Shown here one piece after another: positions 2,353-47,886 of a DNA stretch of 64,000 nucleotides. Made by a program: the position numbers and the translations under genes. The stretch spans positions 20,235 through 84,234 of the forward strand of contig PMAE01000041.1 of assembly GCA_003152485.1 (NCBI GenBank), given 5' to 3'. The notes beneath the pieces were generated by a model. The model did no database searches. It saw nothing but the letters and a program-made list of their open reading frames with translations, and had not been told where the DNA came from. The DNA is from Gemmatimonadota bacterium (GTDB taxonomy: Bacteria > Gemmatimonadota > Gemmatimonadetes > Gemmatimonadales > Gemmatimonadaceae). The number at the start of each line of letters is the position of its first letter. Positions within the stretch are counted from its first letter, which is position 1.

Positions 2353-2353
2353 C

Positions 2354-3616: not shown

Positions 3617-3617
3617 G

Positions 3618-4052
3618 TTGGAGCTGAGCGGTGGGCGATGGAATCGAACGGGGACGCCGGTCGTCTACGCCGCGACTTCTCGAGCGCTCGCATGCTTAGA
3701 GACGCTGGTGCATCTCGGAGCTACGGATTTGCCGCTCAACCGGTATCTTGTCGAGATAGACCTGCCGATCGCTGCGTGGATCGCGCGGACCGTCTTCGAT
3801 AGCACGGTCCATGTGGGTTGGGATGCCGAACCCGCGGGCATGATCTCGCTGGATTGGGGTACCGACTGGGCGACAGGTCGCGGCACATTGCTCGCGGAGG
3901 TTCCGTCGGTGATCGTACCGGAAGAGTCCAACATCCTGATCAACCCGCGACACCCCGACGCCCCGTTAGCAACCGCCGTCAAGATGCGCAAATGGACGTA
4001 CGACGCATGCCTAAGGGTCGATGCGTTAGGCCGAATCGACCCGGTAAGGTAG
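3618..4052 (+). pseudogene. N-terminally truncated RES-domain toxin, no cognate antitoxin gene
   Basis: GGRWNRTGTPVVYAATSRALACLE and VPSVIVPEESNILINP are RES-domain signatures with R, E and S all present. Only 5 codons precede GGRWN, the only start is TTG, and an in-frame stop lies at 3555. The ORF begins 2 nt after the sigma-factor stop. Confidence 0.6.
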
Positions 4053-4231
4053 TAGACAGATCAACGGCAGCACTTGCTGCCGAGTGCGCCGCTCGCGCGG
4101 GCTCATTTGAGGCATTCCACGACTTATTGTTTGCTCAGCCCGACTCAATCGGCGGGAAGGCGTGGACTCTGTTAGCGCTCGAGGCGGGGGTAGCCAGTAG
4201 AATCGGGACGGGTGGGGGGCAGTTGAGCTGA
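4049..4231 (+). pseudogene. DsbA/thioredoxin-like C-terminal fragment
   Basis: ALAAECAARAGSFEAFHDLLFAQPDSIGGKAWTLLALEAGV resembles the helical-insert/C-terminal part of DsbA-family oxidoreductases. There is no N-terminal CxxC part and no start codon. Confidence 0.4.
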
Positions 4232-4258
4232 GCCTCAGCTCAGCTAGTCGACGTACAG

Positions 4259-4540
4259 CTACTTCACTTCGCTAGGCATATCTTGAGCTGCCACAATCTG
4301 CCAAGTGCCGCGCCGTTTAAGCCAAGTGTCCGTCCAAGTGAGTTTGATCGTGTGCTTTCGCCCGTCAGCCTCAGTGCGTACCGCGCTTTCACTGCCGTAC
4401 AAAAATGGCCATGGCGTCACCAAAAAATGGACCGTCACCTCGTACATCGTGCACGCTTCTTCGGGAACCCCGCTTTGGGCATGCGCGACCGCCTCCTTTT
4501 TCGAGTAGCGCGGGGCGGCGGATAGGCTGACGATCTTCAC
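4259..4540 (-). pseudogene. DUF4440/SnoaL-like C-terminal fragment
   Basis: The ORF ends ...TIKLTWTDTWLKRRGTWQIVAAQDMPSEVK, a typical last beta-strand region of NTF2-like DUF4440 proteins. It is too short for a full domain and sits in an AT-richer segment. Confidence 0.35.
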
Positions 4541-4566
4541 ATCTTCCACACCGGGAGTGCCACGCG

Positions 4567-5058
4567 ATGCGCACAGCTCACCACACACTCGCCACCCTGG
4601 CGATCCTCGCCGCAGTCGGTGGCTGCGGTGCACCGACCTCCCACGCGACGGTCGATGGTGCGGCTGCCGACACGACGGCACGCCACGCGCACGAGGCCTA
4701 CACGACGGCAATCAATTCGAACAACCTGGATTCGTTACTCGCAATGGTCACTGAGGATGTCGTCTTTCTGTCGCCCAACGAGCCCGTGATAGTGGGCAAG
4801 GCCGCGGTCCGTGCATGGTCCGAATCGTACCTTAAGGCCTTCACCATACACTGGGACAAGACCGTGTCGGAATTCATAGTCGCCGGTGAATGGGCGTTCG
4901 AGCGCTATTCATACGCAGAGCACGACACCCCCGCCGGCGGTGGCGCCGCGGTCACGGACACGGGAAAGGGCCTCATCATCTATCACCGGGACTCCGACGG
5001 GAAGTGGCGCGTCGCCCGCGATGCTTGGAGCTCGGATCTGCCGCTCCCAAAAAAGTAG
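4567..5058 (+). CDS. SnoaL-like/DUF4440 (NTF2-fold) lipoprotein
   Basis: Signal peptide with lipobox (LAAVGGCG). NTF2-like core (AYTTAINSNNLDSLLAMVTEDVVFLSPNEP...KGLIIYHRDSDGKWRVARDAW). Confidence 0.8.
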   Translation: MRTAHHTLATLAILAAVGGCGAPTSHATVDGAAADTTARHAHEAYTTAINSNNLDSLLAMVTEDVVFLSPNEPVIVGKAAVRAWSESYLKAFTIHWDKTVSEFIVAGEWAFERYSYAEHDTPAGGGAAVTDTGKGLIIYHRDSDGKWRVARDAWSSDLPLPKK

Positions 5059-5242
5059 CGGCCGCGTCGGGCCAGAGCGGTGCTGGAGTACGCGCGACTG
5101 CTGGCACTGCGCGGCTGGCCGAATCATATTAGGTCGCCGCCAGCCCCTTCGCGCCCAGCCGCCATCTTTCTCCTGCTGTGTACCCCGATTGGACGAGGCA
5201 CTTTGGAAGGCGTCGGTTGGCTTTTCAAAGGAGAGTGATGCC

Positions 5243-5335
5243 ATGGAAACGCATCGCCGGGGATCGGACGGGCGACGGCGGTTTACGCCGGAGTTTAAGC
5301 GAGGCCAGTTAGGGCGCGTACTCCGGGGCGAGCGC
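5243..5335 (+). mobile_element. IS3-family transposase OrfA N-terminal stub
   Basis: AAGGAG-N8-ATG followed by METHRRGSDGRRRFTPEFKRGQLGRVL. RRRFTPEFKR is the characteristic opening of the IS3-family OrfA HTH. The reading frame then runs into tRNA-like sequence. No DDE part and no inverted repeats were seen. Confidence 0.45.
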
Positions 5336-5339
5336 CGCA

Positions 5340-5381
5340 CTGAAAATCCGCGTGTCGACGGTTCGATTCCGCCCCTAGCCA
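5340..5381 (+). other. tRNA-Phe(GAA) 3'-half-like fragment (not an intact tRNA)
   Basis: CTGAAAATCCGCGTGTCGACGGTTCGATTCCGCCCCTAGCCA contains an anticodon loop with GAA, a 3' anticodon stem, a GTGTC variable loop, a T arm with the GGTTCGATTCC box (one stem mismatch) and a 3' acceptor strand. The 5' half does not fold: there is no D arm and the acceptor pairs only 5/7. Confidence 0.5.
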
Positions 5382-5452
5382 CTGTTGGAACAAATTAAAG
5401 TATCAAGGCTTACCAATGCGAACGGGTACCCATGCAGGTACCCGTTCTGTAC

Positions 5453-5484
5453 AAAAAAGCCTGCAAAATTCCCTAATTGCAGGC
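5453..5484 (-). terminator. intrinsic terminator of the Big_2 lipoprotein gene
   Basis: On the minus strand GCCTGCAA-(10 nt)-TTGCAGGC is followed directly by TTTTTT. A second perfect 11-bp hairpin lies at 5420..5447. Confidence 0.6.
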
Positions 5485-5639
5485 GACGTGTTGCTTCAGT
5501 AGGTAACCCGAGTCGAACCGGCTCTAGCCAAGCGAGTCGCCGGTGATCAACCCGTTGGTCGGCAGTCATTACTCGCGTCCGACTCCGATGCGGCCGCCGA
5601 CAGCCGACTATTGCGCGGACGCCCGCGAATTTCTTCGAC

Positions 5640-6800
5640 TCAGTAACTGTCCGGAAAGTCACCCCAGTTCTGTTTGATGGCCTGCGCTCCGGCTTTGATT
5701 CCGCCACTGACCGTAAAGGACGGCGCCCACCACAACACGAGAGTGTTGTGGTCGTGCAGTTGACCCCCGATGGAGATCGAACCGTGAGAGTGGAGCTTCA
5801 CCTGAACGCCGCCCTGTATGTTGCCGGCGACGGTGAGCGAGCTGCAATTCCACACGGTCAGCGTCGATGCCGTGCCCATGTTATTGCCGGTGACGTCGTT
5901 GCCCAAACTGAAACCTGCTCCCGCGGTAACTTGGACCTGGCTGCCCCCGTCGATCTGGTCGTCAATCGAGATACTCGTCGCCGCAGTGAGATCGGCCGTA
6001 CTCGCATGGTCGATCTTGCCGCGTATCTCGATGGAGCCCGACGTGCTCCGGAGGGTAGCCGTGCATTGACCGTCGATGTCGCCATTCACGACCAAGTTCC
6101 CGGGAACGGTCTGGCTGAGTGTGCCACCGTTACACCCCGCGATGTCAACTTCCGGCGGTGTCGCCACGAGGATGGTGGCCGACGCCACGCGGCCGGCAAT
6201 GGCGGCGGTCACGGTCGCCGTCCCGGGGCTGACGCCCGTCACCGTGCCCGATGAATTGACCGTCGCAACCGATTGCTCGCTGCTGCCCCAGGTCGCGGAC
6301 AATCCACTAACTACGTTGCCGGAGGCATCGTACGCGGTAGCCCGGAGCTGACCCATAGCGTCTGGCGCCACCGTCAGAGTCTCGGGCACAACGACGACCT
6401 CGGCGACGGTCACCGCCGAGACGGTGACGATGGCGATGCCCGTCACACCGTCTGCGCTCGCCCCGATCCTTGCACGTCCCGGCGTTACAGCGGTCACAAC
6501 GCCGCTAGAGGACACGGTCGCGATGCTCGGGTCCTCACTCGACCAGTACACTTGGTCCATCGCGAGCACGCGTCCCGCGACATCCACGGCAGTCGCGCTC
6601 AGGGTCGTCTGCCGAGGGACGAGCAGCGCTATCGCCGAGGGTTGGACGTGGATCGCGGAAACAGTCTGGATGTCGGTTGCGGCCGAACATCCACCGCCAA
6701 TGATGATCAGGGACGCAAACGCGGCGATCGCGATCGGCCACCGGTGGTCACTGCCCTGATTAACCGCCGTTCGGCTAGCCATGGGGACAGACCTCCTCAC
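5640..6800 (-). CDS. lipoprotein with two bacterial Ig-like (Big_2) domains and a repetitive beta-helix-like C-terminal part
   Basis: Lipobox IIIGGGCS. Two Big_2-type repeats (LSATAVDVAGRVL...ATVSSSGVVTAVTPGRARI and LRATAYDASGNVV...ATVNSSGTVTGVSPGTATV). The C-terminus has a periodic G-x-I/V pattern. Confidence 0.8.
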   Translation of the reverse strand: MRRSVPMASRTAVNQGSDHRWPIAIAAFASLIIIGGGCSAATDIQTVSAIHVQPSAIALLVPRQTTLSATAVDVAGRVLAMDQVYWSSEDPSIATVSSSGVVTAVTPGRARIGASADGVTGIAIVTVSAVTVAEVVVVPETLTVAPDAMGQLRATAYDASGNVVSGLSATWGSSEQSVATVNSSGTVTGVSPGTATVTAAIAGRVASATILVATPPEVDIAGCNGGTLSQTVPGNLVVNGDIDGQCTATLRSTSGSIEIRGKIDHASTADLTAATSISIDDQIDGGSQVQVTAGAGFSLGNDVTGNNMGTASTLTVWNCSSLTVAGNIQGGVQVKLHSHGSISIGGQLHDHNTLVLWWAPSFTVSGGIKAGAQAIKQNWGDFPDSY

Positions 6801-7372
6801 TGAAAATATCCGTGGGCCGAGAGCTGTTCCAGTGGCCGACGCCGCCGTCGCGCCGCCATCGCCGCGCTAGAGTCGCGTCATTCGTTTGTCGAGGGAGGTC
6901 AGCGGCGGGGAAGCCGCGCCCGTGCGGAGCCGGCGGCAATCGGCGAGCGCCGCAAGTTGACGCGACGCAGCGTCGAACAATTGCCGCGAGCCCCAAATTC
7001 GTGAGGCGTATTGACCTAAGTCATGGCGGGCACGTGTGACAACTTGACCGAGGTCATCGCACTCCCCGGTAACGTTCTCCCGGTAGAGGTGGGGCGAACG
7101 ACAGCCTGGCACCTGCCGGAAACTGCCGCGAGGGGCCACGCAAATACGACGAGCCTAGCGATGCCCGATTGGTTCATTGGCTCGGCACGGACAATCGGCC
7201 GCGATAGTCGCCGGTTGATCACGGAGCGCTGTGGCCAGTGCACTACCCAGGTACCCGGGTAAACACTGGGCGCACTCGGTCGCGGGACCATCCGGCAGCA
7301 CGTCACCCAGCCGGAACTCCGCCACTCACGAGGCGGCTTGGAACCAGTGCGAAATACGATCGCGTACGAATG

Positions 7373-21724: not shown

Positions 21725-22582
21725 TCACTCGATCTTCGCGACTCCGTCGCCCGGCGTGGGGAACCGGACGAACACGTCGGGATCGTGGCCCGGAATGATG
21801 AGCCGCGGGCTCGACGCGATGTGGCGCATCCGGTCTTGGGCTTGGAGGTTCGAGGTCGAATCGCCGGGAACGTACGTCGCGCCGATCGGCACGTGCTTGG
21901 CCAGGTTCTCGAACATGTACATGTTGTCCGACGCCAGGACAACGACACCCGCCGCCGTCTGGACGCCGACGTACTCGGACGCGTAGGTGTGCCGGCCACC
22001 CGTGTACACGGTGATGCCAGGAATCACTTCCCGCGCATCCCCATCCACGAGCTGGACGCGACCGGCGCGATGCAGCTGCGCCAACATGTGCGCATCCACG
22101 GTGTCGATGGCGTTATCCAGCGGCTCGCCATTCGACCCCACATAGTGGTCGTACTCGGCCTTCTGGATCCAGATGCGCGCCTTGGGGAAGAGGTCAGCCC
22201 CGTCGAGATGGTCCCAATGGATGTGCGAGATGATGATGTCGGTGATGTCCTCGGGCTTGAGTCCGACTTTGGCGATCGCCGCTGATGGCCGCTGCCAGTC
22301 AAATGGCTTCCACGCGGTGAGGAATTGCTCCCGGTAGAATCCGGCATCGAGTAGGACGTTGCGTCCGTTTCCCTTTATGACCCCGACCATGAACGCCAGG
22401 TCGGTGCGCCGGCTCGTATCGGCACCCCGCACGAGTTCGGACACCGGAAACGAATGAAAGCCGGCGAATCGCACCATGTAGACCTCGTACGGCGGTCCCG
22501 AATGCGACGGCTGCGCCTGAAGCGTCGCCCCGCAGGCGAGCACGCCGACCACAGCCACCGCGAAGGCACAACGGGTAGTCAC
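21725..22582 (-). CDS. MBL-fold metallo-hydrolase (AHL-lactonase-like), exported
   Basis: IISHIHWDHLDG (HxHxDH). The N-terminus is hydrophobic and signal-like after GTG 22582. The start is uncertain and ATG 22681 is also possible. Confidence 0.8.
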   Translation of the reverse strand: MTTRCAFAVAVVGVLACGATLQAQPSHSGPPYEVYMVRFAGFHSFPVSELVRGADTSRRTDLAFMVGVIKGNGRNVLLDAGFYREQFLTAWKPFDWQRPSAAIAKVGLKPEDITDIIISHIHWDHLDGADLFPKARIWIQKAEYDHYVGSNGEPLDNAIDTVDAHMLAQLHRAGRVQLVDGDAREVIPGITVYTGGRHTYASEYVGVQTAAGVVVLASDNMYMFENLAKHVPIGATYVPGDSTSNLQAQDRMRHIASSPRLIIPGHDPDVFVRFPTPGDGVAKIE

Positions 22583-22694
22583 GAGAGGAGGCTCCGGACG
22601 AGGTGTACGGGGATGACCTTCGGCGAGTCGGGCGACGTAGTCCGGCTGGATTCTAGGCTCCGGGCGCTGGCGCCGCCACATGCGACATAGCACG

Positions 22695-22710
22695 TGCCAT
22701 AGCTCTGCCA
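22695..22710 (-). promoter_or_regulatory. candidate sigma54 (-24/-12) promoter facing the MBL hydrolase gene
   Basis: The minus strand reads TGGCAG-AGCTA-TGGCA, with GG and GC in the canonical 12-nt register (consensus TGGCAC-N5-TTGCW). Confidence 0.35.
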
Positions 22711-22835
22711 GATGGCTGCATGCCTCGCGTGCGCGGATGGGATCGCTCCCGCGGCGCGCCACCCTTGCTGCCTGTCACGACTGCGGGTAACCTCACCCCG
22801 ACGCTCACTCCCTCCCTGGCCGGGCCGCCTCCTCC

Positions 22836-24407
22836 ATGACTTTCCAGCGCAAGCTGCTGCTGGGGTTCTCGCTCATGGCCCTGCCCGCGCTCCTCGTCGC
22901 GGGTGAGGCGATCCGCACCAATCTGCTCGAGCGGGCCGCGCTCCGGGCGCTGGGTGAGGATCTGGCGCGTTCGCGCACCTACGGCGAGTTGGAGACGGCC
23001 ATGTTCAACCAAACCGAAACGGTCTGGCGATACCTGACCGGGATGGACCCCACCGCGCGCCAGGAGTTCGATCTCAACGGACAGGTCATCGACTACTGGC
23101 AGCAACGATGGCGCTCGGAGCTCCGCCCTGATGAGATGGGGCTCGCCAACGATGTCCACGAAGTGCAGCGACAGATTCGCGTCACCGTCGTCCATGTCTT
23201 CGCGGTCTACGATTCCGGCCAGCACGAAGCCGCGTATCGCTTGGCACAGCTGGAGATTCGCGACCGACTGCTCCCCGTGCTCGACGACCTGAATCGCAAC
23301 ATCTATCGACGAGCCCGTGAATCGAGCGTCCGCGGTGCGTATGCGCATCTGGCGGACATCGTCGCCGATGAGAACCGCGCGCTGGTCGCCATCCTCGTGC
23401 TCGCGCTGGCGACCGCCTTCGTCGCGTCCTGGCTCATCGCGCGCAGTGTGGCGCGCCCCATCAGCCAACTCCGGGAAGCGATGGCCGTCGTCGGCACCGG
23501 ACGACTGGACTATCCGATCGAGACCCGCTCGTCGGATGAGATCGGCGATCTCGCGCGCGCATTCGCGACGATGACCGAGCACCTGCGCCAGTCGCGCGCA
23601 GACATGGACCGTCTCAACATTGAGCTCGAGGCCAAGGTCGCGCAACTCGAGCGCACACAAGCGCAGCTCGTGCACTCCGAGCGGCTGGCCTCGATCGGCG
23701 AGATGGCCGCCGCGGTCGCCCATGGTATTCGCAACCCGCTCGCCAGTCTGCGCGCCGCCGCGCAACTCGCCCTCCGGCAGGCCCAGCACCAAGGCCCGCG
23801 AGAGCACCTGGGCGTCATCATCGGCGAAGTGGATCGCCTCGATCGGCGGGTCAGCCACCTGCTCAACTTCTCGCGGCCAGCGCCCGTACATCAGATGCGA
23901 GAGAGCGTCGCGCGGTTGATCGAGGACCTGACGCCGCCCTTTACCGAGCTGCTTCGCGAACGGCGCATCACGCTCGAGGTCCAGGTCGCGCCGTCGCTCC
24001 CCGATGTCCAGGTCGATCCCATGCAGGTGGAGCAGGCGCTGGTCGAAATCGTCTCCAATGCGCTCGACGCCATGCCGTCGGGCGGCCATCTGCGAATAGC
24101 TGCCCGCGCCGACACCACGGATGGACAGCCGGGCGTCGTCATCGAGATCGCCGACACCGGCGTCGGTATCCCGGAACACGTGATGCCATCGATTTTCGAC
24201 CCCTTCTTTACGACCCGCCCGGAAGGCACCGGCCTTGGGCTCGCCGTCGCGAAGCGATTCATCGAGCAGAACGGCGGGCAACTCGCGATCGCGAGCGCCC
24301 CCGGCATCGGCACTACTATCCAATTGCGGCTGGTCGCGGCGGCAGACCACGACTCAGCGCCAGTCACGATCTCGGCCGCGAATTCCACGTCCACGAGTTC
24401 CACGTGA
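22836..24407 (+). CDS. sensor histidine kinase (TM - helical sensor - TM - HAMP - HisKA - HATPase_c)
   Basis: H-box SIGEMAAAVAHGIRNPL. G boxes EIADTGVGI and GTGLGLAV. HAMP-like ARSVARPISQLREAMAVVGTGRLD. Confidence 0.9.
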   Translation: MTFQRKLLLGFSLMALPALLVAGEAIRTNLLERAALRALGEDLARSRTYGELETAMFNQTETVWRYLTGMDPTARQEFDLNGQVIDYWQQRWRSELRPDEMGLANDVHEVQRQIRVTVVHVFAVYDSGQHEAAYRLAQLEIRDRLLPVLDDLNRNIYRRARESSVRGAYAHLADIVADENRALVAILVLALATAFVASWLIARSVARPISQLREAMAVVGTGRLDYPIETRSSDEIGDLARAFATMTEHLRQSRADMDRLNIELEAKVAQLERTQAQLVHSERLASIGEMAAAVAHGIRNPLASLRAAAQLALRQAQHQGPREHLGVIIGEVDRLDRRVSHLLNFSRPAPVHQMRESVARLIEDLTPPFTELLRERRITLEVQVAPSLPDVQVDPMQVEQALVEIVSNALDAMPSGGHLRIAARADTTDGQPGVVIEIADTGVGIPEHVMPSIFDPFFTTRPEGTGLGLAVAKRFIEQNGGQLAIASAPGIGTTIQLRLVAAADHDSAPVTISAANSTSTSST

Positions 24408-24417
24408 AGCCGACCGT

Positions 24418-24501
24418 ATGAGCGCCACGGCATGAGCGTCTCCGCATGAGCGTCTCCGCATGAGCGCCACAGCATGAACTCCGCAGCATGAGCGCCTCCA
24501 C
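24418..24501 (+). repeat. six tandem 14-bp units (ATGAGCGYC-type), the last containing the regulator start codon
   Basis: ATG at 24418, 24432, 24446, 24460, 24474 and 24488. Units 1-5 each read ATG + 4 codons + TGA, and each TGA overlaps the next ATG (ATGA). Confidence 0.9.
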
Positions 24502-25900
24502 CGTCCTCATCATCGACGATGAGCGCACCCTCGCGCGATCGATCAAGGCGTTTCTGATTGATTCGGGCTACGACGCCGAGGTCGCCGGAAGCGGAGAGCA
24601 GGCACTCGAGCAGCTCGAGCGCATCCGGCCGGACGTGATCTTCGCGGATATGCGACTCCCCGGTATGAATGGCATCGAGCTCCTGCGCCGCATCCGGGAA
24701 TTCGATCCCGCAGTGCCCGTCATCATGATGACGGCCTACGGCACGATTGAAGGCGCGGTCGAGGCGGTCAAGCTCGGCGCCTTCGACTACCTGAAGAAAC
24801 CCGTCGATTTGGACGAGCTCAAATTGCTCACCGACCGGGCGCGTGAATCCTCGCGGTTGAAACAGGAGCTGTCGTACTATCGACGTCGTGGGACTCCCGA
24901 GGTGCGATTCGCGGAGATCGTCGGTCAGTCGCCCGCGATGCTGGCGGTGCTGGATCGCGCGAGACAGATCGCGGTCCTCGACGATGTGCCGCCGGTGTTG
25001 ATCACGGGCGAGACGGGCACTGGCAAGGGCCTGCTCGCCCGCAGCATCCATGCGTCGGGTCCACGCGCGGCCAAGCCATTCATTGAAGTCAACTGTACCG
25101 CGTTGCCGGCCACGTTGATGGAGGCCGAGCTCTTTGGCCACGAGCGTGGCGCCTTCACCGACGCCAAGGAATCGAAGATCGGTCTCTTCGAAGCCGCCGA
25201 AGGCGGATATCTCTTTCTCGACGAAGTCGGCGACATCGAGCTGCCGCTCCAAGGGAAATTGCTGCGCGCGATCGAAGACCGGGTGGTCCGCCGCGTCGGC
25301 GGAATCCGCGACCGCAAGATCGATACGCGAATCTTCGCCGCTACCAATCGCGACCTGGAGCGCGACGCGCAGCTCGGACGGTTCCGCAAAGACCTGTATT
25401 TCCGGCTCGCCGTCATTCTGCTCCGATTGCCGCCCCTGCGAGAGCGCGGTGACGATGTCCTCCTACTCGCCGAGCAGTTCCTGCACCAGTTCGGGGCCAA
25501 ATACGGCAAGGATGTGCGAGAGCTCAGTCCCCGCGCCCGTGCGCTGTTGCTCACCTACCCGTGGCCCGGCAACGTGCGCGAGCTCAGTCACGTGATCGAG
25601 CGTGCGGTGCTCTGGAGCCGCGGCCCGGTCCTGGACGCCGACCATCTCTCGCTCACCGAGCCCGCGCCGCCCGAGACCGCCGCCGCCGATGATCTCCATC
25701 CGATTGCGAACGGCAGTGACGCGTCCAATATCGGATTCGGCATTCCGCCCGGCGCCGGCGACCTCCCCCAATGGGAGAAATCGGTGATCGAGCATGCATT
25801 GCGCGAAGCCGGCGGCAACCAAACGAAAGCCGCCCACCGACTCGGCATCAGCCGCGACACGCTACGCTATCGTTTGAAGAAGTTCGGGATCCAAGCGTAG
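24488..25900 (+). CDS. sigma54-dependent response regulator (NtrC family: REC-AAA+-Fis HTH)
   Basis: REC (VLIIDDE...FADMRLPGMNG), Walker A GETGTGKG, GAFTDA (GAFTGA-type sigma54 contact loop) and C-terminal HTH NQTKAAHRLGISRDTLRYRLKKFG. Confidence 0.92.
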   Translation: MSASTVLIIDDERTLARSIKAFLIDSGYDAEVAGSGEQALEQLERIRPDVIFADMRLPGMNGIELLRRIREFDPAVPVIMMTAYGTIEGAVEAVKLGAFDYLKKPVDLDELKLLTDRARESSRLKQELSYYRRRGTPEVRFAEIVGQSPAMLAVLDRARQIAVLDDVPPVLITGETGTGKGLLARSIHASGPRAAKPFIEVNCTALPATLMEAELFGHERGAFTDAKESKIGLFEAAEGGYLFLDEVGDIELPLQGKLLRAIEDRVVRRVGGIRDRKIDTRIFAATNRDLERDAQLGRFRKDLYFRLAVILLRLPPLRERGDDVLLLAEQFLHQFGAKYGKDVRELSPRARALLLTYPWPGNVRELSHVIERAVLWSRGPVLDADHLSLTEPAPPETAAADDLHPIANGSDASNIGFGIPPGAGDLPQWEKSVIEHALREAGGNQTKAAHRLGISRDTLRYRLKKFGIQA

Positions 25901-25994
25901 TCAGCCGGGAGCCCGCAGCCGCCAAGAGGCTCCGAATTGCGAATCAGCGCGCTTAGCGCCTGTCCCCTACCGGGTGCCAATGGACTACGCAGCA

Positions 25995-26016
25995 GGGGCC
26001 GTTCCCGAACGGCCCC
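25995..26016 (+). terminator. GC hairpin after the regulator gene
   Basis: GGGGCCGTT-CCCG-AACGGCCCC. The T tract is weak. Confidence 0.4.
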
Positions 26017-26090
26017 TACCTTCCCGATGCATCAATCCTCATGTCATCGCGACGGACGCCGCCGGCGCCTGTGGTGTACATTCGCGAGCT

Positions 26091-26124
26091 GGGTCATTTC
26101 ACCCAATTACCAGCCAAATGACCC
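26091..26124. promoter_or_regulatory. 9-bp inverted repeat, candidate enhancer (UAS) for the pqqA promoter
   Basis: GGGTCATTT-N16-AAATGACCC is centred about 120-130 bp upstream of the sigma54-like promoter. Confidence 0.3.
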
Positions 26125-26224
26125 TCCCCGCCCCAGAAATCTAACTCGACAGCTACAACCAGCCAGATCGCATAAGACGCAACGCAACAACTAGTTAGGC
26201 GACGTCTCGAGGCCGTCAATGCCG

Positions 26225-26240
26225 TGGCATGCGGCGTGCT
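26225..26240 (+). promoter_or_regulatory. candidate sigma54 (-24/-12) promoter upstream of pqqA
   Basis: TGGCAT-GCGGC-GTGCT against consensus TGGCAC-N5-TTGCW. GG and GC are in the correct register. It lies 74 nt upstream of ATG 26314. Confidence 0.5.
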
Positions 26241-26313
26241 TATATGCGAGGCAGAGTCGAGCCATCCAATGATTCGGCCAGATGCTGCATCATGATCAAC
26301 CTCGGAGCGCCAT

Positions 26314-26385
26314 ATGTGGACCAAGCCTGAATTCGAAGTCGTAGAAGTCACGATGGAAGTGACCGCCTACGTCGCCCGGCGCTAA
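26314..26385 (+). CDS. pqqA: coenzyme PQQ precursor peptide PqqA (orphan copy)
   Basis: A 23-codon ORF absent from the 60-aa-threshold track: MWTKPEFEVVEVTMEVTAYVARR. It has the MWTKP opening and the E-x-x-x-Y cross-link pair (EVTAY). GGAG lies 6 nt upstream of the ATG and a terminator follows. Confidence 0.8.
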   Translation: MWTKPEFEVVEVTMEVTAYVARR

Positions 26386-26410
26386 GAGCCGGACGTAGCG
26401 TGCAAGTAAA

Positions 26411-26444
26411 GGGGCCCGCGAACGCGGGCCCCTTGTTCGTTTCT
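26411..26444. terminator. bidirectional intrinsic terminator between pqqA and the convergent dioxygenase gene
   Basis: GGGGCCCGCGAACGCGGGCCCC followed by TTGTTCGTTTCT on the plus strand and by TTTACTT on the minus strand. Confidence 0.7.
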
Positions 26445-26449
26445 GGAAG

Positions 26450-28114
26450 TTAGGAGCGCGCGCTGCGCCCACTGGTGAGCACGCGTTCGAGCCACGCTCG
26501 AGCCGCGGCCACTTCGCCCTCCGTGATCGAATGGCCACCCTCCTCCCAGTGGATGGTGACCTCGGCCCCGGCTCGGCGTAGCAGATCAGCGAGCTGCTCC
26601 GATTGTGCTGGGCTCGCGATCTGATCGCCGCGGCCCGCTCCGATAAACACCGGCATCCCGGCCAAGTCGGGCAGCGGGTCCGCGTCGAACGGAACCATCG
26701 GACTCAATAAGACAGCGGCTCGCAGCAGTCCCGGACGGCGCAGGAGCAGGCTTGCCGCGATGTTTGCGCCGTTCGAGAACCCGACCGCTACGATCCCGTC
26801 GCGGTCCAATCCGTAGGTCGTGGCGGCCGCCGTGATGAATTCCGCGAGCTCGCTCGTGCGACGCGCCAGGTCTTCCTGATCGAACACGCCCTCCGCGATC
26901 CGGCGAAAGAATCGCGGCATGCCGCGCTCCAAGACCTGACCGCGAGGGCTCAACAGACCGGCGCCGAGGACCAGCGCACGACCCAACGGAACGAGGTCCT
27001 CCTCGTTGCCGCCGGTGCCGTGGAGCAGGAGCAGTGTTGTACCGCCGGCGTACTCCGAGCCGGGCGCGGGCGGTACGTACCGATGGACGAAGCCGAGTGC
27101 ATCGCCGCTCACATCTTCGGGGCCGCCCCCCGCCTTCGCGATGCTGAGCTCCGCGCCCGTCACCGGGAGGTGTATCGGCGGCAGCACGGCCTCGATCTGC
27201 GGCCGATACGACTCGTACTGCGGCGGCAACATGAGGCGTTCCCCAAGGTGCTCGATCGGCTCGTCGATCGCGAAGCCTGGGCCATCGGTCGCGATCTCGA
27301 ACAACACGCCGCCGGGTTCGTGAAAATAGACCGAATGGAAATACGTGCGATCGATGACCGGGGTCGGCGTGGGGCCCGCCGCGACCACCTGCTCGCGGAT
27401 CGCGAGTTGGGCCGCGTCGTCCGCCGCGCGAAACGCGACGTGGTGGACGATCCCACTCCCGCCCGCGCCGCCCGCGAATCCGCCGATCTCCCGCACGTCG
27501 ACCAATGTCCCCGCGCCGCCATCGCCCACCGCGTATCGCCGGGTCGTCTGGTCCTCGCCGACCGCGCGAAATCCCAGCGTATCGATGAGCAAGCGCTCGG
27601 TCGCGTCGTGCTTCTCCTCCCACAGTGTGACGCTATGAAATCCCCGGATCGCGTGTGCGGCGTCGATCCCCGGCGCGCCACGCCACGCGGGTCGAGTCTC
27701 CGCGCTCGCGTGCGCGACGATCTCCAACATCAGCCCGTCGTGGTCGCGAAACGCGAGCACGCGCTCCGTCGCTGCGCCCACCTCGCGCTTCGTCGGCCCC
27801 TCGAACGGCACGCTGTGGCGGACCAATCGCTCGACCCAGAAGCCGAGTGCCGCGGGCGATACCGCGAACGCGGTGACCGCGACCTGACCCGCGCTCTGGC
27901 GCCCCCGCCGAGCGCCCGGCCATGGAAAAAAAGTCAGGACGCTGCCCGGCGTCCCCGTCTCATCCGCAAAGTAGAAATGGTAGGTCTGCGGGTCATCGAA
28001 GTTCACCGTGCGCTTGATGAACCGCAGCCCGAGCAGACCGACGTAGAAGTCGAGGTTCCGCTGTGGGTCGCCGGCGATCGCGGTAACGTGATGGATTCCG
28101 AGGACGCTGGTCAT
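26450..28114 (-). CDS. VOC-family ring-cleaving dioxygenase fused to phospholipase/carboxylesterase-type hydrolase
   Basis: The N-terminal VOC modules (GIHHVTAIAGDPQRNLDFYVGLLGL, IVHHVAFRA) resemble MhqO-type extradiol dioxygenases. The C-terminal ~200 aa form an alpha/beta hydrolase (LLLLHGTGGNEEDL, GFSNGANIA), like MhqD-type esterases. Confidence 0.85.
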   Translation of the reverse strand: MTSVLGIHHVTAIAGDPQRNLDFYVGLLGLRFIKRTVNFDDPQTYHFYFADETGTPGSVLTFFPWPGARRGRQSAGQVAVTAFAVSPAALGFWVERLVRHSVPFEGPTKREVGAATERVLAFRDHDGLMLEIVAHASAETRPAWRGAPGIDAAHAIRGFHSVTLWEEKHDATERLLIDTLGFRAVGEDQTTRRYAVGDGGAGTLVDVREIGGFAGGAGGSGIVHHVAFRAADDAAQLAIREQVVAAGPTPTPVIDRTYFHSVYFHEPGGVLFEIATDGPGFAIDEPIEHLGERLMLPPQYESYRPQIEAVLPPIHLPVTGAELSIAKAGGGPEDVSGDALGFVHRYVPPAPGSEYAGGTTLLLLHGTGGNEEDLVPLGRALVLGAGLLSPRGQVLERGMPRFFRRIAEGVFDQEDLARRTSELAEFITAAATTYGLDRDGIVAVGFSNGANIAASLLLRRPGLLRAAVLLSPMVPFDADPLPDLAGMPVFIGAGRGDQIASPAQSEQLADLLRRAGAEVTIHWEEGGHSITEGEVAAARAWLERVLTSGRSARS

Positions 28115-44745: not shown

Positions 44746-46119
44746 CTAGGCGGCCGATGACCGAGTGAGCCCGTGCCGCCGCATGATCTTCAACAAGCTG
44801 GCGTGGTCGGCGAGCTCGAGATCCTGCGCCGCACGCGTGACGTGCCAATCGTGGCGGTCGAGCGCAGCGATGATGATCTGCCGCTCGGCTTCGGCTTTCC
44901 GCTCGAGAAAGGTGCGCCCGATCGATGCCGGCGCAGCGACCCGAGACGCGCCCTCGTCTCGGACCTCGAGCGGTACGTGCTCCGGACCGATCGTGTCGCC
45001 ATCCGACGCGATCACCATCCGCTCCACCACATTGCGTAGCTCACGGACATTGTTCTGGCGCCAGTCGTACGCCATGAGCAGTGGGAGGACCGACGTACCC
45101 AGTCGCTTCGGGCGGCACCGGAACCGATCACACGTCGTCGCCAGCAGTCGTGCCACCAGGTCCGGCAGATCGGAGAGCCGGTCGCGCAGCGGCGGGACGC
45201 GCAGGATGTGTACGTTGAGCCGGAAGTAGAGATCCTTCCGGAATCGGTCGGAGCGCACGTCCGCGTCCAGATCCCGATTCGTCGCCGCGACAACGCGCGC
45301 GGGAACGGCGACACCGCGGGTGCTACCCAGCCGAACCACGACGCGTTCCTCCAGCACGCGCAGAAGCTTGGCCTGCGCCGCCAACGGCAGGTCGCCGATC
45401 TCGTCGAGAAAGAGGGTACCCCGCCCCGCGCTCTCGAAGGCGCCCTTTCGCTGCGCGATCGCTCCGGAAAACGCGCCCCGCTCGTGACCAAACAACTCGC
45501 TCTCCACCAGATGCTCCGGCAGCGCGGCGCAGTTGACGGCCACGAACGGTTCTCGGGGATTGGCCCCTAGCCGGTGTACCTCACGTGCGACGAGTTCCTT
45601 GCCCGAGCCGCTTTCGCCCATGATGAGCACCGCGCTCGGGATCGGCGCCACACGCGCGATGGCATCCTTGAAGGCACGCATGGCCGGGCTCGACCCGAGG
45701 AGCGCGCTCTCGTCGTCCGCGTACCGGCGCAGCATCGCGATCTCATCCAGCATCCGCCGCCGCTCGATGGCCAACTCGATCTCCCGGGCGACCCGCTCGA
45801 CAGGCTCTTCCTTGTCGATGAACGCCGACGCGCCACGCCGAATGGCATCCGCGCACCGGTCGTAGCTGCCGGTGCCCGTGTACACGATGACCGGAACCGC
45901 CAGGCCACGCTCCCGCATCGCCTGCAGGACGCCGAATCCGTCCATGCCAGGCATCTCGAGATCGAGCACGACGCAGTCGACGGCGTCTCGACTCAGCACG
46001 TCGAGCGCCGCGGCCCCCGAACCGACGACTTGGACTTGGTGGTCGCCCAGGCGCCGGAGATCATAGGCGTACTGTTCGGCCACCAGGATGTTGTCGTCAC
46101 ACACGAGAATGGTAGACAT
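44746..46119 (-). CDS. sigma54-dependent response regulator (NtrC family)
   Basis: REC (ILVCDDN...VLDLEMPGMDG), Walker A GESGSGKE, the GAFSGA loop and a C-terminal HTH. Confidence 0.92.
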   Translation of the reverse strand: MSTILVCDDNILVAEQYAYDLRRLGDHQVQVVGSGAAALDVLSRDAVDCVVLDLEMPGMDGFGVLQAMRERGLAVPVIVYTGTGSYDRCADAIRRGASAFIDKEEPVERVAREIELAIERRRMLDEIAMLRRYADDESALLGSSPAMRAFKDAIARVAPIPSAVLIMGESGSGKELVAREVHRLGANPREPFVAVNCAALPEHLVESELFGHERGAFSGAIAQRKGAFESAGRGTLFLDEIGDLPLAAQAKLLRVLEERVVVRLGSTRGVAVPARVVAATNRDLDADVRSDRFRKDLYFRLNVHILRVPPLRDRLSDLPDLVARLLATTCDRFRCRPKRLGTSVLPLLMAYDWRQNNVRELRNVVERMVIASDGDTIGPEHVPLEVRDEGASRVAAPASIGRTFLERKAEAERQIIIAALDRHDWHVTRAAQDLELADHASLLKIMRRHGLTRSSAA

Positions 46120-46128
46120 GATCGATCC

Positions 46129-47886
46129 TCAGGATGGGCGCGTCTGGAGAGGTGTCGCTGTGGACGTGCTCGGACCGGCAAGCGTGACGATGACCCGCGT
46201 CCCGGTACCGGGTGCTGTCTCCACTCGAAGCTCACCATGGATGTCGCGAACCAGACGACTCACGATGGAGAGTCCGAGACCGGTGCCGGTGGGCTTCGTG
46301 GTGTAGAAGTCGTTGAACGCCATACGGAGCTCGTCAGAAGTCATCCCACATCCGCCGTCGGCGACCGTGACGCGGACCCCGCCCTGCAGCGATTCGGTCG
46401 TGATCATCACCGCATCGGACCGCTGACCGGCCGCCTCGCAGGCGTTCGCGACGAGATTCTCCAGGATACGGCGCACGACAAGCGCGTCCACAGCCATCGC
46501 GGGGACCGCGGCGTCGAGGTGGAGCGCGATGGACGCGCCAATATTGGAAGATCCGTCTGCGTCAGACCTGGTGTAGCCAGCCGCCACTGCGTGCGCCACG
46601 GCGTTGACATCGCACGGACCGACGTCGAGCGGCGGACTGAGGCGCGCGTAGGTCCGTGCGAGTTCGTCGAGATAGGCGATGCTCGCGTCGAGCGTGGGGC
46701 GGCGCTGTGCGAAGACGGTCGCCAGCCGGTCCGGCTGCGTGTGCTGGACCTCTGTGAGATGGCGGACGACGTGACGGATCGGCACGAGGCCGTTCTTCAC
46801 GTCGTGGGTCACCTGCCGTGCGAGGTCGCCAACGGTTGCGCGCCGTTCGGCATCACGCAATCCCGTCGCGTTCGTGCGGAGTCGGCGCACCATGGCGGCC
46901 AGGACTCGAGAGAGCGCCCCAATCTCATCGTCACGATCATTAGGGAAGTCGCCGGCCGGCGCCTCGAGATTGACTCGCGTGGATTGCTCGGCGAGCGACC
47001 GCAAGGGGCGCGAGATGCGATCGGCCAACCAGTTGGCCGTGAGCAGCGCCGCGGCAGCGGCCAGGCCGACGGATGCGAAGCACCACCAGACTATCGCGGC
47101 GCGCAATGCGTGGAGCCCGGTCAATGATTGCGTAACCTCGAAGCGGGCAGACGCGACAGCACGGCCGCCTCCCGCTGCGGCGGTAATCACCGGGAAGGGA
47201 AATGATGCGACGATCGCGGTACGAGGCGACACGGGTGATGGCCCCGTCGCGATCGTGGCGGGTGCTCCAGCCATACCGCTGGGCACGATGAGGGCCACCG
47301 AGAGCTCGCTGTCGGCTACCAGATGGCCGAGTAATCGCGGGCTGGCCTCGATCCCGCCGACGAGCGCGAAGCGTCGGCCTCCAAGTCGCAAAGAATCAAC
47401 ACCCGCGAGGATCAGCATCGCGCCGTCTGGCGTCCGAGCCGACACCAGGGCGGTGCCGCCTGGCGCGGACACGAGCAGTGGGACGAGATCGGGCTCCATT
47501 CGATCGAATTCGTTTCGATAGTGGCCCGAGCTCAGGATCCGGCCGCTGTCGTTGTCGATCTGGAGCATCGCGAGGCCTGAGAGCCGCATGGCATGTACGG
47601 CGTAGTCGAGGAGATAGCGTCGCTCGGACGGTGCGTCCTGGACCGCAGCAAGCCGAAATCGATCGTCGTCAACGACGCCGTCGCGCACCGACGCCAACCG
47701 GGCCGCGACGGTCGAGCCAGCGCTCGCCAAGTCGCCACGGGTCCGTGCGGCGAGTCCAGTGACGCGGCGCTGATAGGCAGCGGTGAGCTGTCGGTCTACC
47801 TCGTGCCCGATGCCAACGCCCAAGACGACCAACGGCACGACCGCGGTCGTCGCAAAGGCGACAAAGAGGCGAGTCCGGAATGTCAT
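46129..47886 (-). CDS. sensor histidine kinase (periplasmic sensor - HAMP - HisKA - HATPase_c)
   Basis: Two TM segments flank a ~270-aa sensor. H-box ARQVTHDVKNGLVPI. G boxes TVADGGCGM and GTGLGLSIV. Confidence 0.88.
   Translation of the reverse strand: MTFRTRLFVAFATTAVVPLVVLGVGIGHEVDRQLTAAYQRRVTGLAARTRGDLASAGSTVAARLASVRDGVVDDDRFRLAAVQDAPSERRYLLDYAVHAMRLSGLAMLQIDNDSGRILSSGHYRNEFDRMEPDLVPLLVSAPGGTALVSARTPDGAMLILAGVDSLRLGGRRFALVGGIEASPRLLGHLVADSELSVALIVPSGMAGAPATIATGPSPVSPRTAIVASFPFPVITAAAGGGRAVASARFEVTQSLTGLHALRAAIVWWCFASVGLAAAAALLTANWLADRISRPLRSLAEQSTRVNLEAPAGDFPNDRDDEIGALSRVLAAMVRRLRTNATGLRDAERRATVGDLARQVTHDVKNGLVPIRHVVRHLTEVQHTQPDRLATVFAQRRPTLDASIAYLDELARTYARLSPPLDVGPCDVNAVAHAVAAGYTRSDADGSSNIGASIALHLDAAVPAMAVDALVVRRILENLVANACEAAGQRSDAVMITTESLQGGVRVTVADGGCGMTSDELRMAFNDFYTTKPTGTGLGLSIVSRLVRDIHGELRVETAPGTGTRVIVTLAGPSTSTATPLQTRPS

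What the first reader, a model, noticed from the sequence alone, without database searches (positions are those of the whole stretch)
26314..26385. Unannotated 23-codon pqqA gene, orphaned from any pqqBCDE
An ORF too short for the supplied track lies between the regulator stop (25900) and the convergent dioxygenase gene. It runs from ATG 26314 to TAA 26385 and encodes MWTKPEFEVVEVTMEVTAYVARR. It has the PqqA hallmarks: about 23 aa, an MW(T/K)KP opening, the Glu-x-x-x-Tyr pair (E15-V-T-A-Y19) that is cross-linked to form PQQ, and a basic C-terminus. GGAG sits 6 nt upstream of the ATG, and a GC hairpin plus T tract (26411..26444) follows. No pqqB, pqqC, pqqD or radical-SAM pqqE is recognisable anywhere in the 64 kb. 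The precursor gene is therefore embedded in a sigma54 regulatory locus rather than in a pqq operon. It could supply a distant pqq cluster, or it could be a PqqA-like peptide with another fate.
Basis: partly seen in the sequence, partly recalled or inferred. Interest (0 to 1): 0.8.

Follow-up and report, generated by a model that had tools for sequence, protein, structure and literature searches.

The report
Stand-alone, sigma-54-controlled PQQ precursor gene
The 23-codon ORF is a genuine pqqA (the precursor peptide of the cofactor PQQ), and it sits where it always sits in Gemmatimonadales, just downstream of a dedicated sensor kinase and sigma-54 regulator, but in this lineage the pqqBCDE enzyme genes that usually follow are not next to it.

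Summary
ATG 26314 to TAA 26385 encodes MWTKPEFEVVEVTMEVTAYVARR, which passes the curated cutoffs of both PqqA models. The identical peptide is already named PqqA in NCBI. No pqqB/C/D/E lies in the 64 kb.

The "sigma-54 regulatory locus" is not a foreign context. It is the conserved head of the pqq cluster in Gemmatimonadales. In about 100 species the same kinase and NtrC-type regulator are followed by TGGGT-N6-ACCCA palindromes, a -24/-12 promoter, pqqA and a GC hairpin with a T-tract. In most species pqqBCDE follow that hairpin.

The window belongs to a sublineage in which the cluster is fragmented:
- regulator-pqqA alone
- regulator-pqqA-pqqE
- regulator-pqqBCD-pqqA-pqqE
- promoter-less pqqA-pqqBCD elsewhere

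Two genomes demonstrably carry both halves.

The peptide is invariant across these arrangements, and nearly all nucleotide changes are synonymous. I read the ORF as a separately regulated precursor-supply gene for enzymes encoded elsewhere. I could not show that pqqBCDE exist elsewhere in this particular genome.

Orphan pqqA copies are already known in methylotrophs, so interest is modest. The dedicated sigma-54/two-component control appears undescribed in the literature I could search.

The parts
22836..24407 (+). Sensor histidine kinase (HAMP-HisKA-HATPase_c), partner of the regulator
   Evidence: Pfam domains. Orthologues at 59-85% identity lie immediately upstream of the regulator in all related loci. 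It reaches no NCBIfam equivalog cutoff.
24488..25900 (+). NtrC-type response regulator and sigma-54 activator (receiver, AAA+ sigma-54 interaction domain, Fis-type HTH)
   Evidence: Pfam: Sigma54_activat 205.9 bits, Response_reg, HTH_8. Orthologues at 70-90% identity are followed by pqqA in every locus with enough downstream sequence. None of 76 non-orthologous sigma-54 regulator loci (37-45% identity) has a PqqA-like ORF.
25995..26016 (+). GC hairpin GGGGCCG-N8-CGGCCCC after the regulator stop; possible end of the kinase/regulator transcript
   Evidence: Read directly from the sequence. Not tested further. It lies in a stretch of about 180 nt that relatives lack.
26090..26105 (.). Perfect palindrome TGGGTCATTTCACCCA; candidate upstream activator site for the regulator, about 127 nt upstream of the -24 element
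   Evidence: Found with 0 mismatches. TGGGT-N6-ACCCA (at most 1 mismatch) occurs in 94 of 100 regulator-linked pqqA upstream regions, mean 2.0 per locus against 0.014 in shuffles, mostly 100-140 nt upstream of the promoter. It occurs in 0 of 9 pqqA copies that lack the regulator.
26225..26240 (+). Sigma-54 type -24/-12 promoter TGGCATGCGGCGTGCT (GG-N10-GC)
   Evidence: It is the only match to TGGCAYN6TGCW in the 64 kb. On its own that is not significant, since 33 of 100 shuffles give at least one match. The comparative evidence is decisive. The element lies 58-136 nt before pqqA in 23 of 23 regulator-linked ARR-type loci and in 92 of 100 regulator-linked loci overall. It is absent from all 12 regulator-less ARR-type pqqA copies that head pqqB(CD) and from the 9 confirmed regulator-less loci scored. 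The consensus is YGGCACG-N4-CTGC-W-T.
26304..26307 (+). Shine-Dalgarno GGAG, 6 nt before the ATG
   Evidence: GGAG or GAGG sits at the equivalent position in relatives.
26314..26385 (+). pqqA: 23-codon PQQ precursor peptide MWTKPEFEVVEVTMEVTAYVARR, with Glu15 and Tyr19 as the E-x3-Y pair
   Evidence: Among 35 ARR-type loci, 16 codons vary only synonymously and 3 carry amino-acid changes. Variable sites by codon position are 2/1/19.
26409..26444 (+). Intrinsic terminator or attenuator: 11-bp GC-rich stem, 4-nt loop, T-rich tail
   Evidence: An equivalent hairpin with a T-tract follows pqqA in all arrangements, including where pqqB or pqqE comes next (mean dG about -30 to -37 kcal/mol over 70 nt).

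Best explanation
The ORF is a functional pqqA, the ribosomally made precursor whose Glu15 and Tyr19 are cross-linked and excised to give PQQ.

In Gemmatimonadales, pqqA forms a compact transcription unit: [TGGGT-N6-ACCCA activator sites, sigma-54 -24/-12 promoter, pqqA, GC hairpin with T-tract]. This unit sits directly downstream of a dedicated sensor kinase and NtrC-type activator. When the kinase senses its (unknown) signal, the phosphorylated regulator binds the palindromes about 100-140 nt upstream and opens the sigma-54 promoter. The hairpin then ends most transcripts after pqqA. As a result the stoichiometrically consumed precursor is made in excess over the catalytic enzymes.

In most of the order, pqqBCDE follow the hairpin. 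In the window's sublineage the cluster has been broken up repeatedly, while the regulator-promoter-pqqA unit stayed intact. Here that unit contains pqqA only.

Steps shown: PqqA family membership; protein-level conservation; conservation of the promoter, activator sites and hairpin and their exclusive association with this regulator orthogroup; fragmentation of the cluster in sister species, including two genomes that hold both halves.

Steps inferred: that sigma-54 and the regulator actually drive transcription; that the hairpin attenuates; that pqqB/C/D/E lie elsewhere in this genome and process this peptide.
For: 1. Family. TIGR02107 scores 30.8 bits against a cutoff of 20, and PF08042 scores 25.6 against 21.1. 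The identical peptide is named PqqA by NCBI. The TIGRFAMs authors state that every detectable PqqA homologue serves as a PQQ precursor and that the ~23-aa gene is often missed by gene callers (PMC3531188).

2. Canonical context. Regulator orthologues precede pqqA-pqqBCDE in L010-L013. The L012 genes pass the equivalog cutoffs for PqqB (355/245), PqqC (306/240), PqqD (80/46) and PqqE (528/381). Among 120 GTDB species loci, the ATL-type peptide (87 loci) is essentially always regulator-pqqA-BCDE.

3. Regulatory unit. The promoter is present in 92 of 100 regulator-linked loci and the palindrome in 94 of 100, against 0 of 9 for both in regulator-less copies.

4. Specificity. None of 76 loci carrying non-orthologous sigma-54 regulators has a PqqA-like ORF.

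5. Fragmentation in the window's (ARR-type) clade:
- regulator-[A] alone: 6-7 loci
- regulator-[A]-E: 7-8 loci
- regulator-BCD-[A]-E: 3-6 loci (also L137 and L138)
- [A]-BCD without regulator: about 9 loci
SMAG_U6300 (L042 + L087) and SMAG_U1941 (L029 + L105) each hold [A]BCD and regulator-[A]E on separate contigs.

6. Selection. The stand-alone copies keep all 22 post-Met residues that enzyme-adjacent copies have, apart from T->S and V->I, while 14 of 22 codons vary synonymously among six stand-alone loci. The two copies within one genome differ only synonymously, at 58/69 and 61/69 nt identity.

7. Precedent. Orphan pqqA2/pqqA3 in M. extorquens respond to conditions when the other pqq genes do not, and PqqA supply is reported as rate-limiting in Methylovorus MP688 (PMC11317620). 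pqqA mRNA is about 60-fold above pqqB-E in P. brassicacearum (PMC6722718).
Against: No pqqB/C/D/E was found for this genome, or for any of the six stand-alone-type genomes. The 64 kb window, 10 kb beyond it, and +/-10 kb around L007, L008 and L009 have none. With an estimated capture fraction of about 0.2, recovering 0 of 6 has a probability of about 0.2, so this is uninformative.

PQQ importers (PqqU) are reported as widespread in Gemmatimonadetes, and most PqqU carriers lack the biosynthetic genes (PMC12124388). Loss of the enzymes is therefore biologically plausible.

The window promoter departs from the sigma-54 consensus at three positions (TGGCAT-G-C...G-TGC), and as a single site it is not statistically significant.

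No expression data are available. rpoN was not looked for outside the window and is not in it.

Most comparison loci were found with a pattern derived from the peptide, which inflates apparent peptide conservation. A regulator-anchored locus (L141) has a divergent peptide, WTKPEFEVVELGMEVGAYAGNA.
Confidence: 0.7

Rival explanations
1. The stand-alone genomes have lost pqqBCDE, but the regulated peptide is kept for a PQQ-independent role. Possibilities include a substrate for a different maturase, a small signalling or metal-binding peptide, or an output reporter of the two-component system.
For: No pqq enzyme gene was found for any stand-alone genome. The stand-alone arrangement recurs in at least 3 branches of the regulator tree with ORF, promoter, SD and terminator intact. 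PQQ scavenging through PqqU is common in Gemmatimonadetes (PMC12124388). A PQQ-independent role for orphan PqqA in lanthanide uptake has been speculated for M. extorquens (PMC11317620).
Against: The peptide is residue-for-residue the same as copies adjacent to pqqE or pqqBCD. A changed function should relax or shift the constraints over the divergence seen here (regulators 74-80% identical). No alternative maturase or other gene is conserved next to stand-alone copies apart from the kinase and regulator. The absence of the enzymes is untested genome-wide.
Confidence: 0.12
2. The ORF is an evolutionary relic. The pathway was lost or is being lost (PQQ is imported), and the regulator-pqqA stub simply has not decayed yet.
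For: The enzyme genes are missing locally. The clade shows rampant rearrangement of the cluster. PQQ import is common in the phylum.
Against: Six stand-alone loci from at least 3 lineages keep an intact ORF. They show 14 synonymously varying codons and only 2 conservative replacements, with variable sites 2/0/16 by codon position. They also keep the promoter, activator site, SD and terminator. Neutral decay over that much synonymous divergence would have produced frameshifts, stops or non-conservative changes.
Confidence: 0.1
3. The ORF is not translated. The conserved element is a non-coding RNA or DNA feature downstream of the regulator, and the PqqA resemblance is coincidental.
For: The ORF is very short. 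No expression data exist.
Against: Both curated PqqA models are passed. The substitution pattern is that of a coding sequence, with third positions varying. A Shine-Dalgarno sequence is conserved. No Rfam family reaches its threshold in 25850..26500; the best match is 22 bits against a gathering score of 60. The same ORF heads bona fide pqq operons.
Confidence: 0.02

Closest known systems
PqqA of canonical pqqABCDE(F) operons (Klebsiella, Pseudomonas, Methylobacterium; TIGR02107 / PF08042)
   Same: Length of about 23 aa, an MW(T/K)KP N-terminus, an E-x3-Y pair near the C-terminus, HMM scores above the curated cutoffs, and a stable hairpin immediately downstream. High pqqA relative to pqqB-E mRNA is documented in Pseudomonas (PMC6722718).
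   Different: It is not followed by pqqB here. It has Glu11 and Thr13 where, from my memory of published proteobacterial sequences, Arg/Cys and Gly are usual. It comes from Gemmatimonadota, and a sigma-54 promoter is predicted upstream.
Orphan or multiple pqqA copies in methylotrophs (M. extorquens AM1 pqqA2/pqqA3; five copies in Methylovorus sp. MP688)
   Same: A pqqA gene separated from the enzyme genes. It is differentially regulated relative to them, and is thought to set precursor supply (PMC11317620).
   Different: In those organisms a full pqqABCDE cluster is known in the same genome; here that is not shown. Here the separated copy is the one that keeps the cluster's ancestral regulator and promoter, rather than being an extra copy elsewhere.
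NtrC-family two-component systems driving sigma-54 promoters (e.g. AtoSC, ZraSR, NtrBC)
   Same: HAMP-HisKA-HATPase kinase plus a receiver-AAA+-HTH_8 regulator. Inverted-repeat activator sites lie about 100-140 nt upstream of a GG-N10-GC promoter.
   Different: The kinase and regulator score far below every NCBIfam equivalog cutoff (AtoC 454 against 714; AtoS 239 against 646), so this is a distinct orthogroup. Its apparent target is a RiPP-type cofactor precursor gene, which I did not find described.

Membership tests
PqqA (PQQ precursor peptide; TIGR02107 / PF08042) | Profile-HMM score above the curated family cutoffs | tested here: met
   TIGR02107 scores 30.8 bits (cutoff 20, equivalog). 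PF08042 scores 25.6 bits (gathering 21.1).
PqqA (PQQ precursor peptide; TIGR02107 / PF08042) | Very small peptide (about 20-30 aa) with the conserved Glu-x-x-x-Tyr pair that becomes PQQ | tested here: met
   The peptide has 23 aa with E15-V-T-A-Y19. The motif is invariant in all 120+ related loci.
PqqA (PQQ precursor peptide; TIGR02107 / PF08042) | Genomic association with pqqB, pqqC, pqqD, pqqE | tested here: inconclusive
   This is not met within the 64 kb window or 10 kb beyond it. It is met for orthologous or identical peptides in sister species: adjacent to pqqBCDE, pqqE or pqqBCD. The rest of this genome could not be searched.
PqqA (PQQ precursor peptide; TIGR02107 / PF08042) | Bound by PqqD, cross-linked by the radical-SAM enzyme PqqE, and converted to PQQ | not testable with these tools
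   This needs biochemistry or LC-MS.
Sigma-54-dependent promoter with bacterial enhancer-binding protein | GG at -24 and GC at -12 with 10-nt spacing, conserved in orthologous positions | tested here: met
   The window has TGGCATGCGGCGTGCT at 26225..26240. The element is present in 92 of 100 regulator-linked loci and 0 of 9 regulator-less copies.
Sigma-54-dependent promoter with bacterial enhancer-binding protein | Cognate AAA+ activator with a sigma-54 interaction domain, and upstream activator sites about 80-150 nt upstream | tested here: met
   The regulator 24488..25900 scores 205.9 bits for Sigma54_activat. The palindrome at 26090..26105 lies about 127 nt upstream and is conserved in 94 of 100 loci. 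Binding itself is inferred.
Sigma-54-dependent promoter with bacterial enhancer-binding protein | rpoN present in the genome; transcription abolished without rpoN or the activator | not tested
   No Sigma54 core domains were seen in the window.
Orphan / extra pqqA copies (as in M. extorquens AM1, Methylovorus MP688) | pqqA located away from pqqBCDE, while a complete pqq enzyme set exists in the same genome | tested here: inconclusive
   The first half is met. The second half is shown only for relatives, where pqqA occurs at two loci that together hold B, C, D and E: SMAG_U6300 (L042 + L087) and SMAG_U1941 (L029 + L105). It is not shown for this genome.

The most novel reading that the evidence does not exclude
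In the stand-alone lineages (the window, L007/L122, L008/L036, L009) the pqqBCDE genes are absent from the whole genome. The kinase, sigma-54 regulator and pqqA unit is nevertheless kept under purifying selection. The PqqA peptide would then have a PQQ-independent function, or would be matured by unrelated or community-supplied enzymes, in bacteria that otherwise scavenge PQQ.
Probability: 0.1. Interest if true: 0.7.

Novelty: new member of a known kind. Interest (0 to 1): 0.33.

Why it matters
The practical points are modest.

1. A 72-nt gene that standard gene callers drop is real. It should be annotated, because it marks PQQ metabolism in an abundant, uncultivated soil and peat lineage.

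2. The comparison across about 120 species gives a concrete, testable regulatory model for PQQ synthesis in Gemmatimonadales. It names a dedicated kinase and sigma-54 activator, a defined binding palindrome (TGGGT-N6-ACCCA), a -24/-12 promoter and a post-pqqA attenuator. I found no description of this in the searchable literature.

3. In one sublineage the regulated unit carries only the precursor, or the precursor plus the first enzyme PqqE, while pqqBCD sit behind a different, sigma-54-independent pqqA copy. This fits the idea from methylotrophs that precursor supply is the control point of PQQ output.

If the stand-alone genomes truly lacked the enzymes, the finding would become much more interesting.

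Tried and rejected
- **Homologue search with the 23-aa peptide.** An exact-sequence look-up worked instead.
- **Matching contig lengths to find pqqC in stand-alone genomes.** I compared the 'longest_contig' values of PqqC homologues with 3,472,295, 5,116,566, 636,808 and 2,677,001. There were no matches, but the lists stop at 120 clusters (about 74-78% identity). The column is also not cluster-wide: the window's own regulator shows 8,370 although it occurs on contigs above 200 kb. This negative is uninformative.
- **Look-ups of two abundant ARR-clade PqqC clusters**, hoping to hit the window's MAG or the Stordalen assemblies. They landed on unrelated short contigs. L137 did confirm the regulator-BCD-pqqA-E order, with NCBI itself calling the pqqA there.
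- **Extending the view beyond the window**. There are no pqq genes 10 kb to the right. The left-end gene occurs only on contigs shorter than 2 kb.
- **MBL-fold gene 21725..22762 as a disguised PqqB.** Rejected. It matches Lactamase_B rather than the PqqB model, its best NCBIfam hits are AHL-lactonase-like and far below cutoff, and tblastn with PqqB finds nothing.
- **A riboswitch or known sRNA in the 413-nt spacer.** No Rfam match comes near threshold.
- **The idea that stand-alone and enzyme-linked regulators are ancient paralogues.** Rejected. ARR-type regulators nest within ATL-type ones on the NJ tree, and no genome showed two such regulators.
- **Regulator-anchored metagenome scan**. It was swamped by generic sigma-54 regulators and gave only 4 orthologues. 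I used the other 76 loci as a negative control.

Full report
**Observation**

ATG 26314 to TAA 26385 on the + strand encodes MWTKPEFEVVEVTMEVTAYVARR. GGAG lies at 26304-26307, six bases before the start. An 11-bp stem with 9 G-C pairs at 26409-26434 is followed by GTTCGTTTCT. The 65 nt after the stop fold at -34.4 kcal/mol, z = -4.1, and none of 200 shuffles folds as well. The upstream gene, ending at 25900, is a response regulator with a sigma-54 interaction domain. It is preceded by a HAMP/HisKA/HATPase kinase. The downstream gene is convergent and encodes a glyoxalase/dioxygenase fused to a hydrolase.

**Is it PqqA?**

The peptide scores 30.8 bits against NCBIfam TIGR02107 (equivalog, cutoff 20) and 25.6 bits against Pfam PF08042 (gathering 21.1). 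The exact sequence is already in NCBI as MFI5249978.1, 'pyrroloquinoline quinone precursor peptide PqqA [Gemmatimonadales bacterium]'. The authors of the TIGR model state that all detectable PqqA homologues appear to be PQQ precursors, and that the ~23-aa gene is commonly missed by gene callers (PMC3531188). That explains why the supplied track lacked it.

**Is it orphaned?**

Within the window, yes.
- I predicted about 50 genes by GC3 and scanned them against Pfam. There is no PqqB/C/D domain, no radical SAM/SPASM and no PQQ beta-propeller.
- tblastn with Gemmatimonadales PqqB-E against all six frames gave nothing better than E = 0.57.
- Ten kb beyond the right end has none either.
- The MBL-fold gene at 21725-22762 is not PqqB.

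**Source**

The regulator protein occurs identically on many assemblies of one population. These include Stordalen Mire 'WOOD18' assemblies, MAG GCA_003133725.1 and two JGI metagenomes. Named relatives are all Gemmatimonadales.

**Relatives anchored on the regulator or on PqqC, independently of the peptide**

| Locus | Regulator identity | Downstream of the regulator |
|---|---|---|
| L007 | 90% | Same small ORF, alone |
| L008 | 76% | Same small ORF, alone |
| L009 | 74% | Same small ORF, alone |
| L010 | 74% | ORF followed directly by pqqB, pqqC, pqqD, pqqE |

Three loci fetched through PqqC homologues (L011-L013) all read kinase, regulator, pqqA, pqqBCDE. The L012 genes pass the NCBIfam equivalog cutoffs for PqqB, PqqC, PqqD and PqqE. 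The kinase/regulator pair is therefore part of the pqq cluster in this order.

**Survey of species representatives**

I classified the loci with tblastn. Two peptide types emerged.

The 'ATL' type, WTKPEAE(V/I)VAVTMEVTAYVATL, covers 87 loci. Apart from chunk truncations it is always regulator-pqqA-pqqBCDE.

The 'ARR' type is the window's own, WTKPEFEVVEVTMEVTAYVARR, and covers 35 loci. Its arrangements are:
- regulator-pqqA alone: the window, L007/L090, L122, L008/L083, L009, L036, and probably L021
- regulator-pqqA-pqqE: 7-8 loci
- regulator-pqqA-pqqC?-pqqE: 3 loci
- regulator-pqqBCD-pqqA-pqqE: 3-6 loci, plus L137 and L138
- pqqA-pqqBCD with no kinase or regulator: about 9 loci
- pqqA-pqqBCDE without the regulator: L106

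Two assemblies carry two loci each: pqqA-pqqBCD on one contig and kinase-regulator-pqqA-pqqE on another. They are SMAG_U6300 (L042 + L087) and SMAG_U1941 (L029 + L105). Split pqq clusters with two pqqA copies therefore exist in this clade.

On a neighbour-joining tree of the regulators, the ARR loci form a sublineage nested among ATL loci. The stand-alone loci fall on at least three branches. That points to repeated rearrangement of one orthologous locus, not to an old paralogue pair.

**The regulatory unit**

All eight loci first compared share a GG-N10-GC element and TGGGT-N6-ACCCA palindromes between the regulator's stop codon and pqqA.

| Group | Loci | -24/-12 element | Palindrome (at most 1 mismatch) |
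|---|---|---|---|
| Regulator-linked | 100 | 92 | 94 (mean 2.0 per locus; 0.014 in shuffles) |
| Regulator-less | 9 | 0 | 0 |

- The palindromes lie mostly 100-140 nt upstream of the promoter.
- Within the ARR clade, the promoter is present in 23 of 23 regulator-linked loci and in 0 of 12 regulator-less loci.
- The window has a perfect palindrome at 26090-26105 and TGGCATGCGGCGTGCT at 26225-26240.
- The window's promoter is the only match to TGGCAYN6TGCW in 64 kb. As a single site that is not significant (33 of 100 shuffles give at least one match). Its weight comes from the comparison.
- None of 76 loci built around non-orthologous sigma-54 regulators (37-45% identity) holds a PqqA-like ORF.
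- A GC-rich hairpin with a T-tract follows pqqA in every arrangement, including where pqqB or pqqE comes next.

The conserved, portable unit is therefore [activator sites, sigma-54 promoter, pqqA, hairpin].

**Selection**

Among the 35 ARR loci, 16 codons vary only synonymously and 3 carry replacements. Variable sites by codon position are 2/1/19. Among the six stand-alone loci the figures are 14 and 2 codons, and 2/0/16 sites. The only replacements there are T->S and V->I.

Loci from L014 onward were found through the peptide pattern, which biases this result. However, the regulator-anchored set (the window, L007, L008, L009) shows the same pattern. A further regulator-anchored locus, L141, has a different peptide, WTKPEFEVVELGMEVGAYAGNA. 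Some diversity is therefore hidden by the pattern.

The two copies within one genome are 58/69 and 61/69 nt identical, and every difference is synonymous. Both copies are maintained as proteins.

**Interpretation**

I conclude that the ORF is a working pqqA. It is transcribed from a sigma-54 promoter under a dedicated two-component system and terminated right after the ORF. In this lineage it is physically separated from the enzymes.

This fits what is known elsewhere:
- Orphan pqqA2/pqqA3 of M. extorquens respond to conditions when the other pqq genes do not, and PqqA supply is reported as rate-determining in Methylovorus MP688 (PMC11317620).
- pqqA mRNA far exceeds pqqB-E mRNA in a Pseudomonas (log2 TPM 12.8 against 6-7; PMC6722718).
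- PQQ-dependent XoxF3 systems are reported in Gemmatimonadetes (PMC10875860).

**What is not shown**

I could not determine whether this genome, or any stand-alone genome, has pqqBCDE elsewhere. The attempts were uninformative, for the reasons given under 'tried and rejected'.

From 2 paired and about 14 unpaired split loci, I estimate that the capped scan captured roughly a fifth of all hits. Seeing no second pqqA in six stand-alone genomes then has a probability of about 0.2, which says nothing.

PQQ importers are common in Gemmatimonadetes, and most carriers lack the biosynthetic genes (PMC12124388). Loss of the enzymes is therefore a live alternative.

Against that alternative, the stand-alone peptide is identical to enzyme-adjacent copies and is clearly under purifying selection. 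This is best explained if the same enzymes still read it. I put about 0.7 on the split-cluster reading, about 0.1 on a relic, and about 0.1 on a repurposed peptide.

**Novelty and score**

The gene belongs to a known family, the exact peptide is already named in a public database, and orphan pqqA copies are known. What may be new is the order-wide kinase, sigma-54 regulator, palindrome, promoter, pqqA and attenuator architecture, together with its fragmentation pattern. My literature searches for pqqA with sigma-54 or rpoN found nothing relevant. The library is limited to open-access papers, so this is weak evidence of novelty. I rate the finding 'new member of a known kind', with interest about 0.33.

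Noticed in passing
L011-L013 and many ATL-type loci (e.g. L012 about 6870-6890); not present in the window: An additional TGGGT-N6-ACCCA palindrome lies 60-80 nt downstream of the -24 element, in the pqqA leader (59 occurrences in the histogram). It could be an autoregulatory or roadblock site for the same regulator.
   Followed up: partly
L117 (CAVRTU010000002.1), 2300..6531: Two pqqA genes lie in one 8-kb stretch, in the order pqqA (WKKPEFEVVAVTMEVTAYVATL), pqqB, kinase, regulator, pqqA, pqqCDE. The kinase/regulator pair appears to be inserted between pqqB and the rest of the cluster.
   Followed up: no
L030, L045, L074, L137, L138: These loci have the order regulator-pqqB-pqqC-pqqD-pqqA-pqqE. 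pqqB starts within a few bases of the regulator's stop codon, and the sigma-54 promoter sits in the ~320-nt pqqD-pqqA spacer. Only pqqA-pqqE would then be sigma-54 driven. No activator palindrome was found within 450 nt there.
   Followed up: partly
L141 (JACXTT010030335.1), 2999..3067: A third peptide variant, MTWTKPEFEVVELGMEVGAYAGNA, lies behind the same regulator, palindromes and promoter and ahead of pqqB. The peptide-pattern survey therefore hides some PqqA diversity in the phylum.
   Followed up: no
window 26450..28114 (-): The convergent neighbour is a fusion of a glyoxalase/ring-cleavage dioxygenase domain with an MhqD-like carboxylesterase domain (NF047577, 162.8 bits, below its cutoff of 325). 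That is a hydroquinone-degradation-like enzyme. It is conserved next to pqqA only in the closest relatives (L007, L122).
   Followed up: partly
window 562..1239 (+): A CheB-type methylesterase gene sits in a patch of unusually low GC3 (0.49, against about 0.8 elsewhere). The exact protein is found elsewhere only on contigs shorter than 2 kb. This suggests a variable or foreign region at the left end of the window.
   Followed up: no
window 44746..47886 (-): A second kinase and sigma-54 response-regulator pair is present. Its regulator is about 40% identical to the pqqA-linked one and lies next to a TPR protein. Its target is unknown.
   Followed up: no
window 2090..4052 (+): An ECF-type sigma factor with DUF6596 is immediately followed by a RES-domain protein, which is a toxin-like domain.
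   Followed up: no
window 25901..26085: The window has about 180 nt between the regulator's stop codon and the activator palindrome that relatives lack. The stretch includes the hairpin GGGGCCG-N8-CGGCCCC at 25995..26016. In relatives the palindromes start within about 10-40 nt of the stop codon.
   Followed up: no
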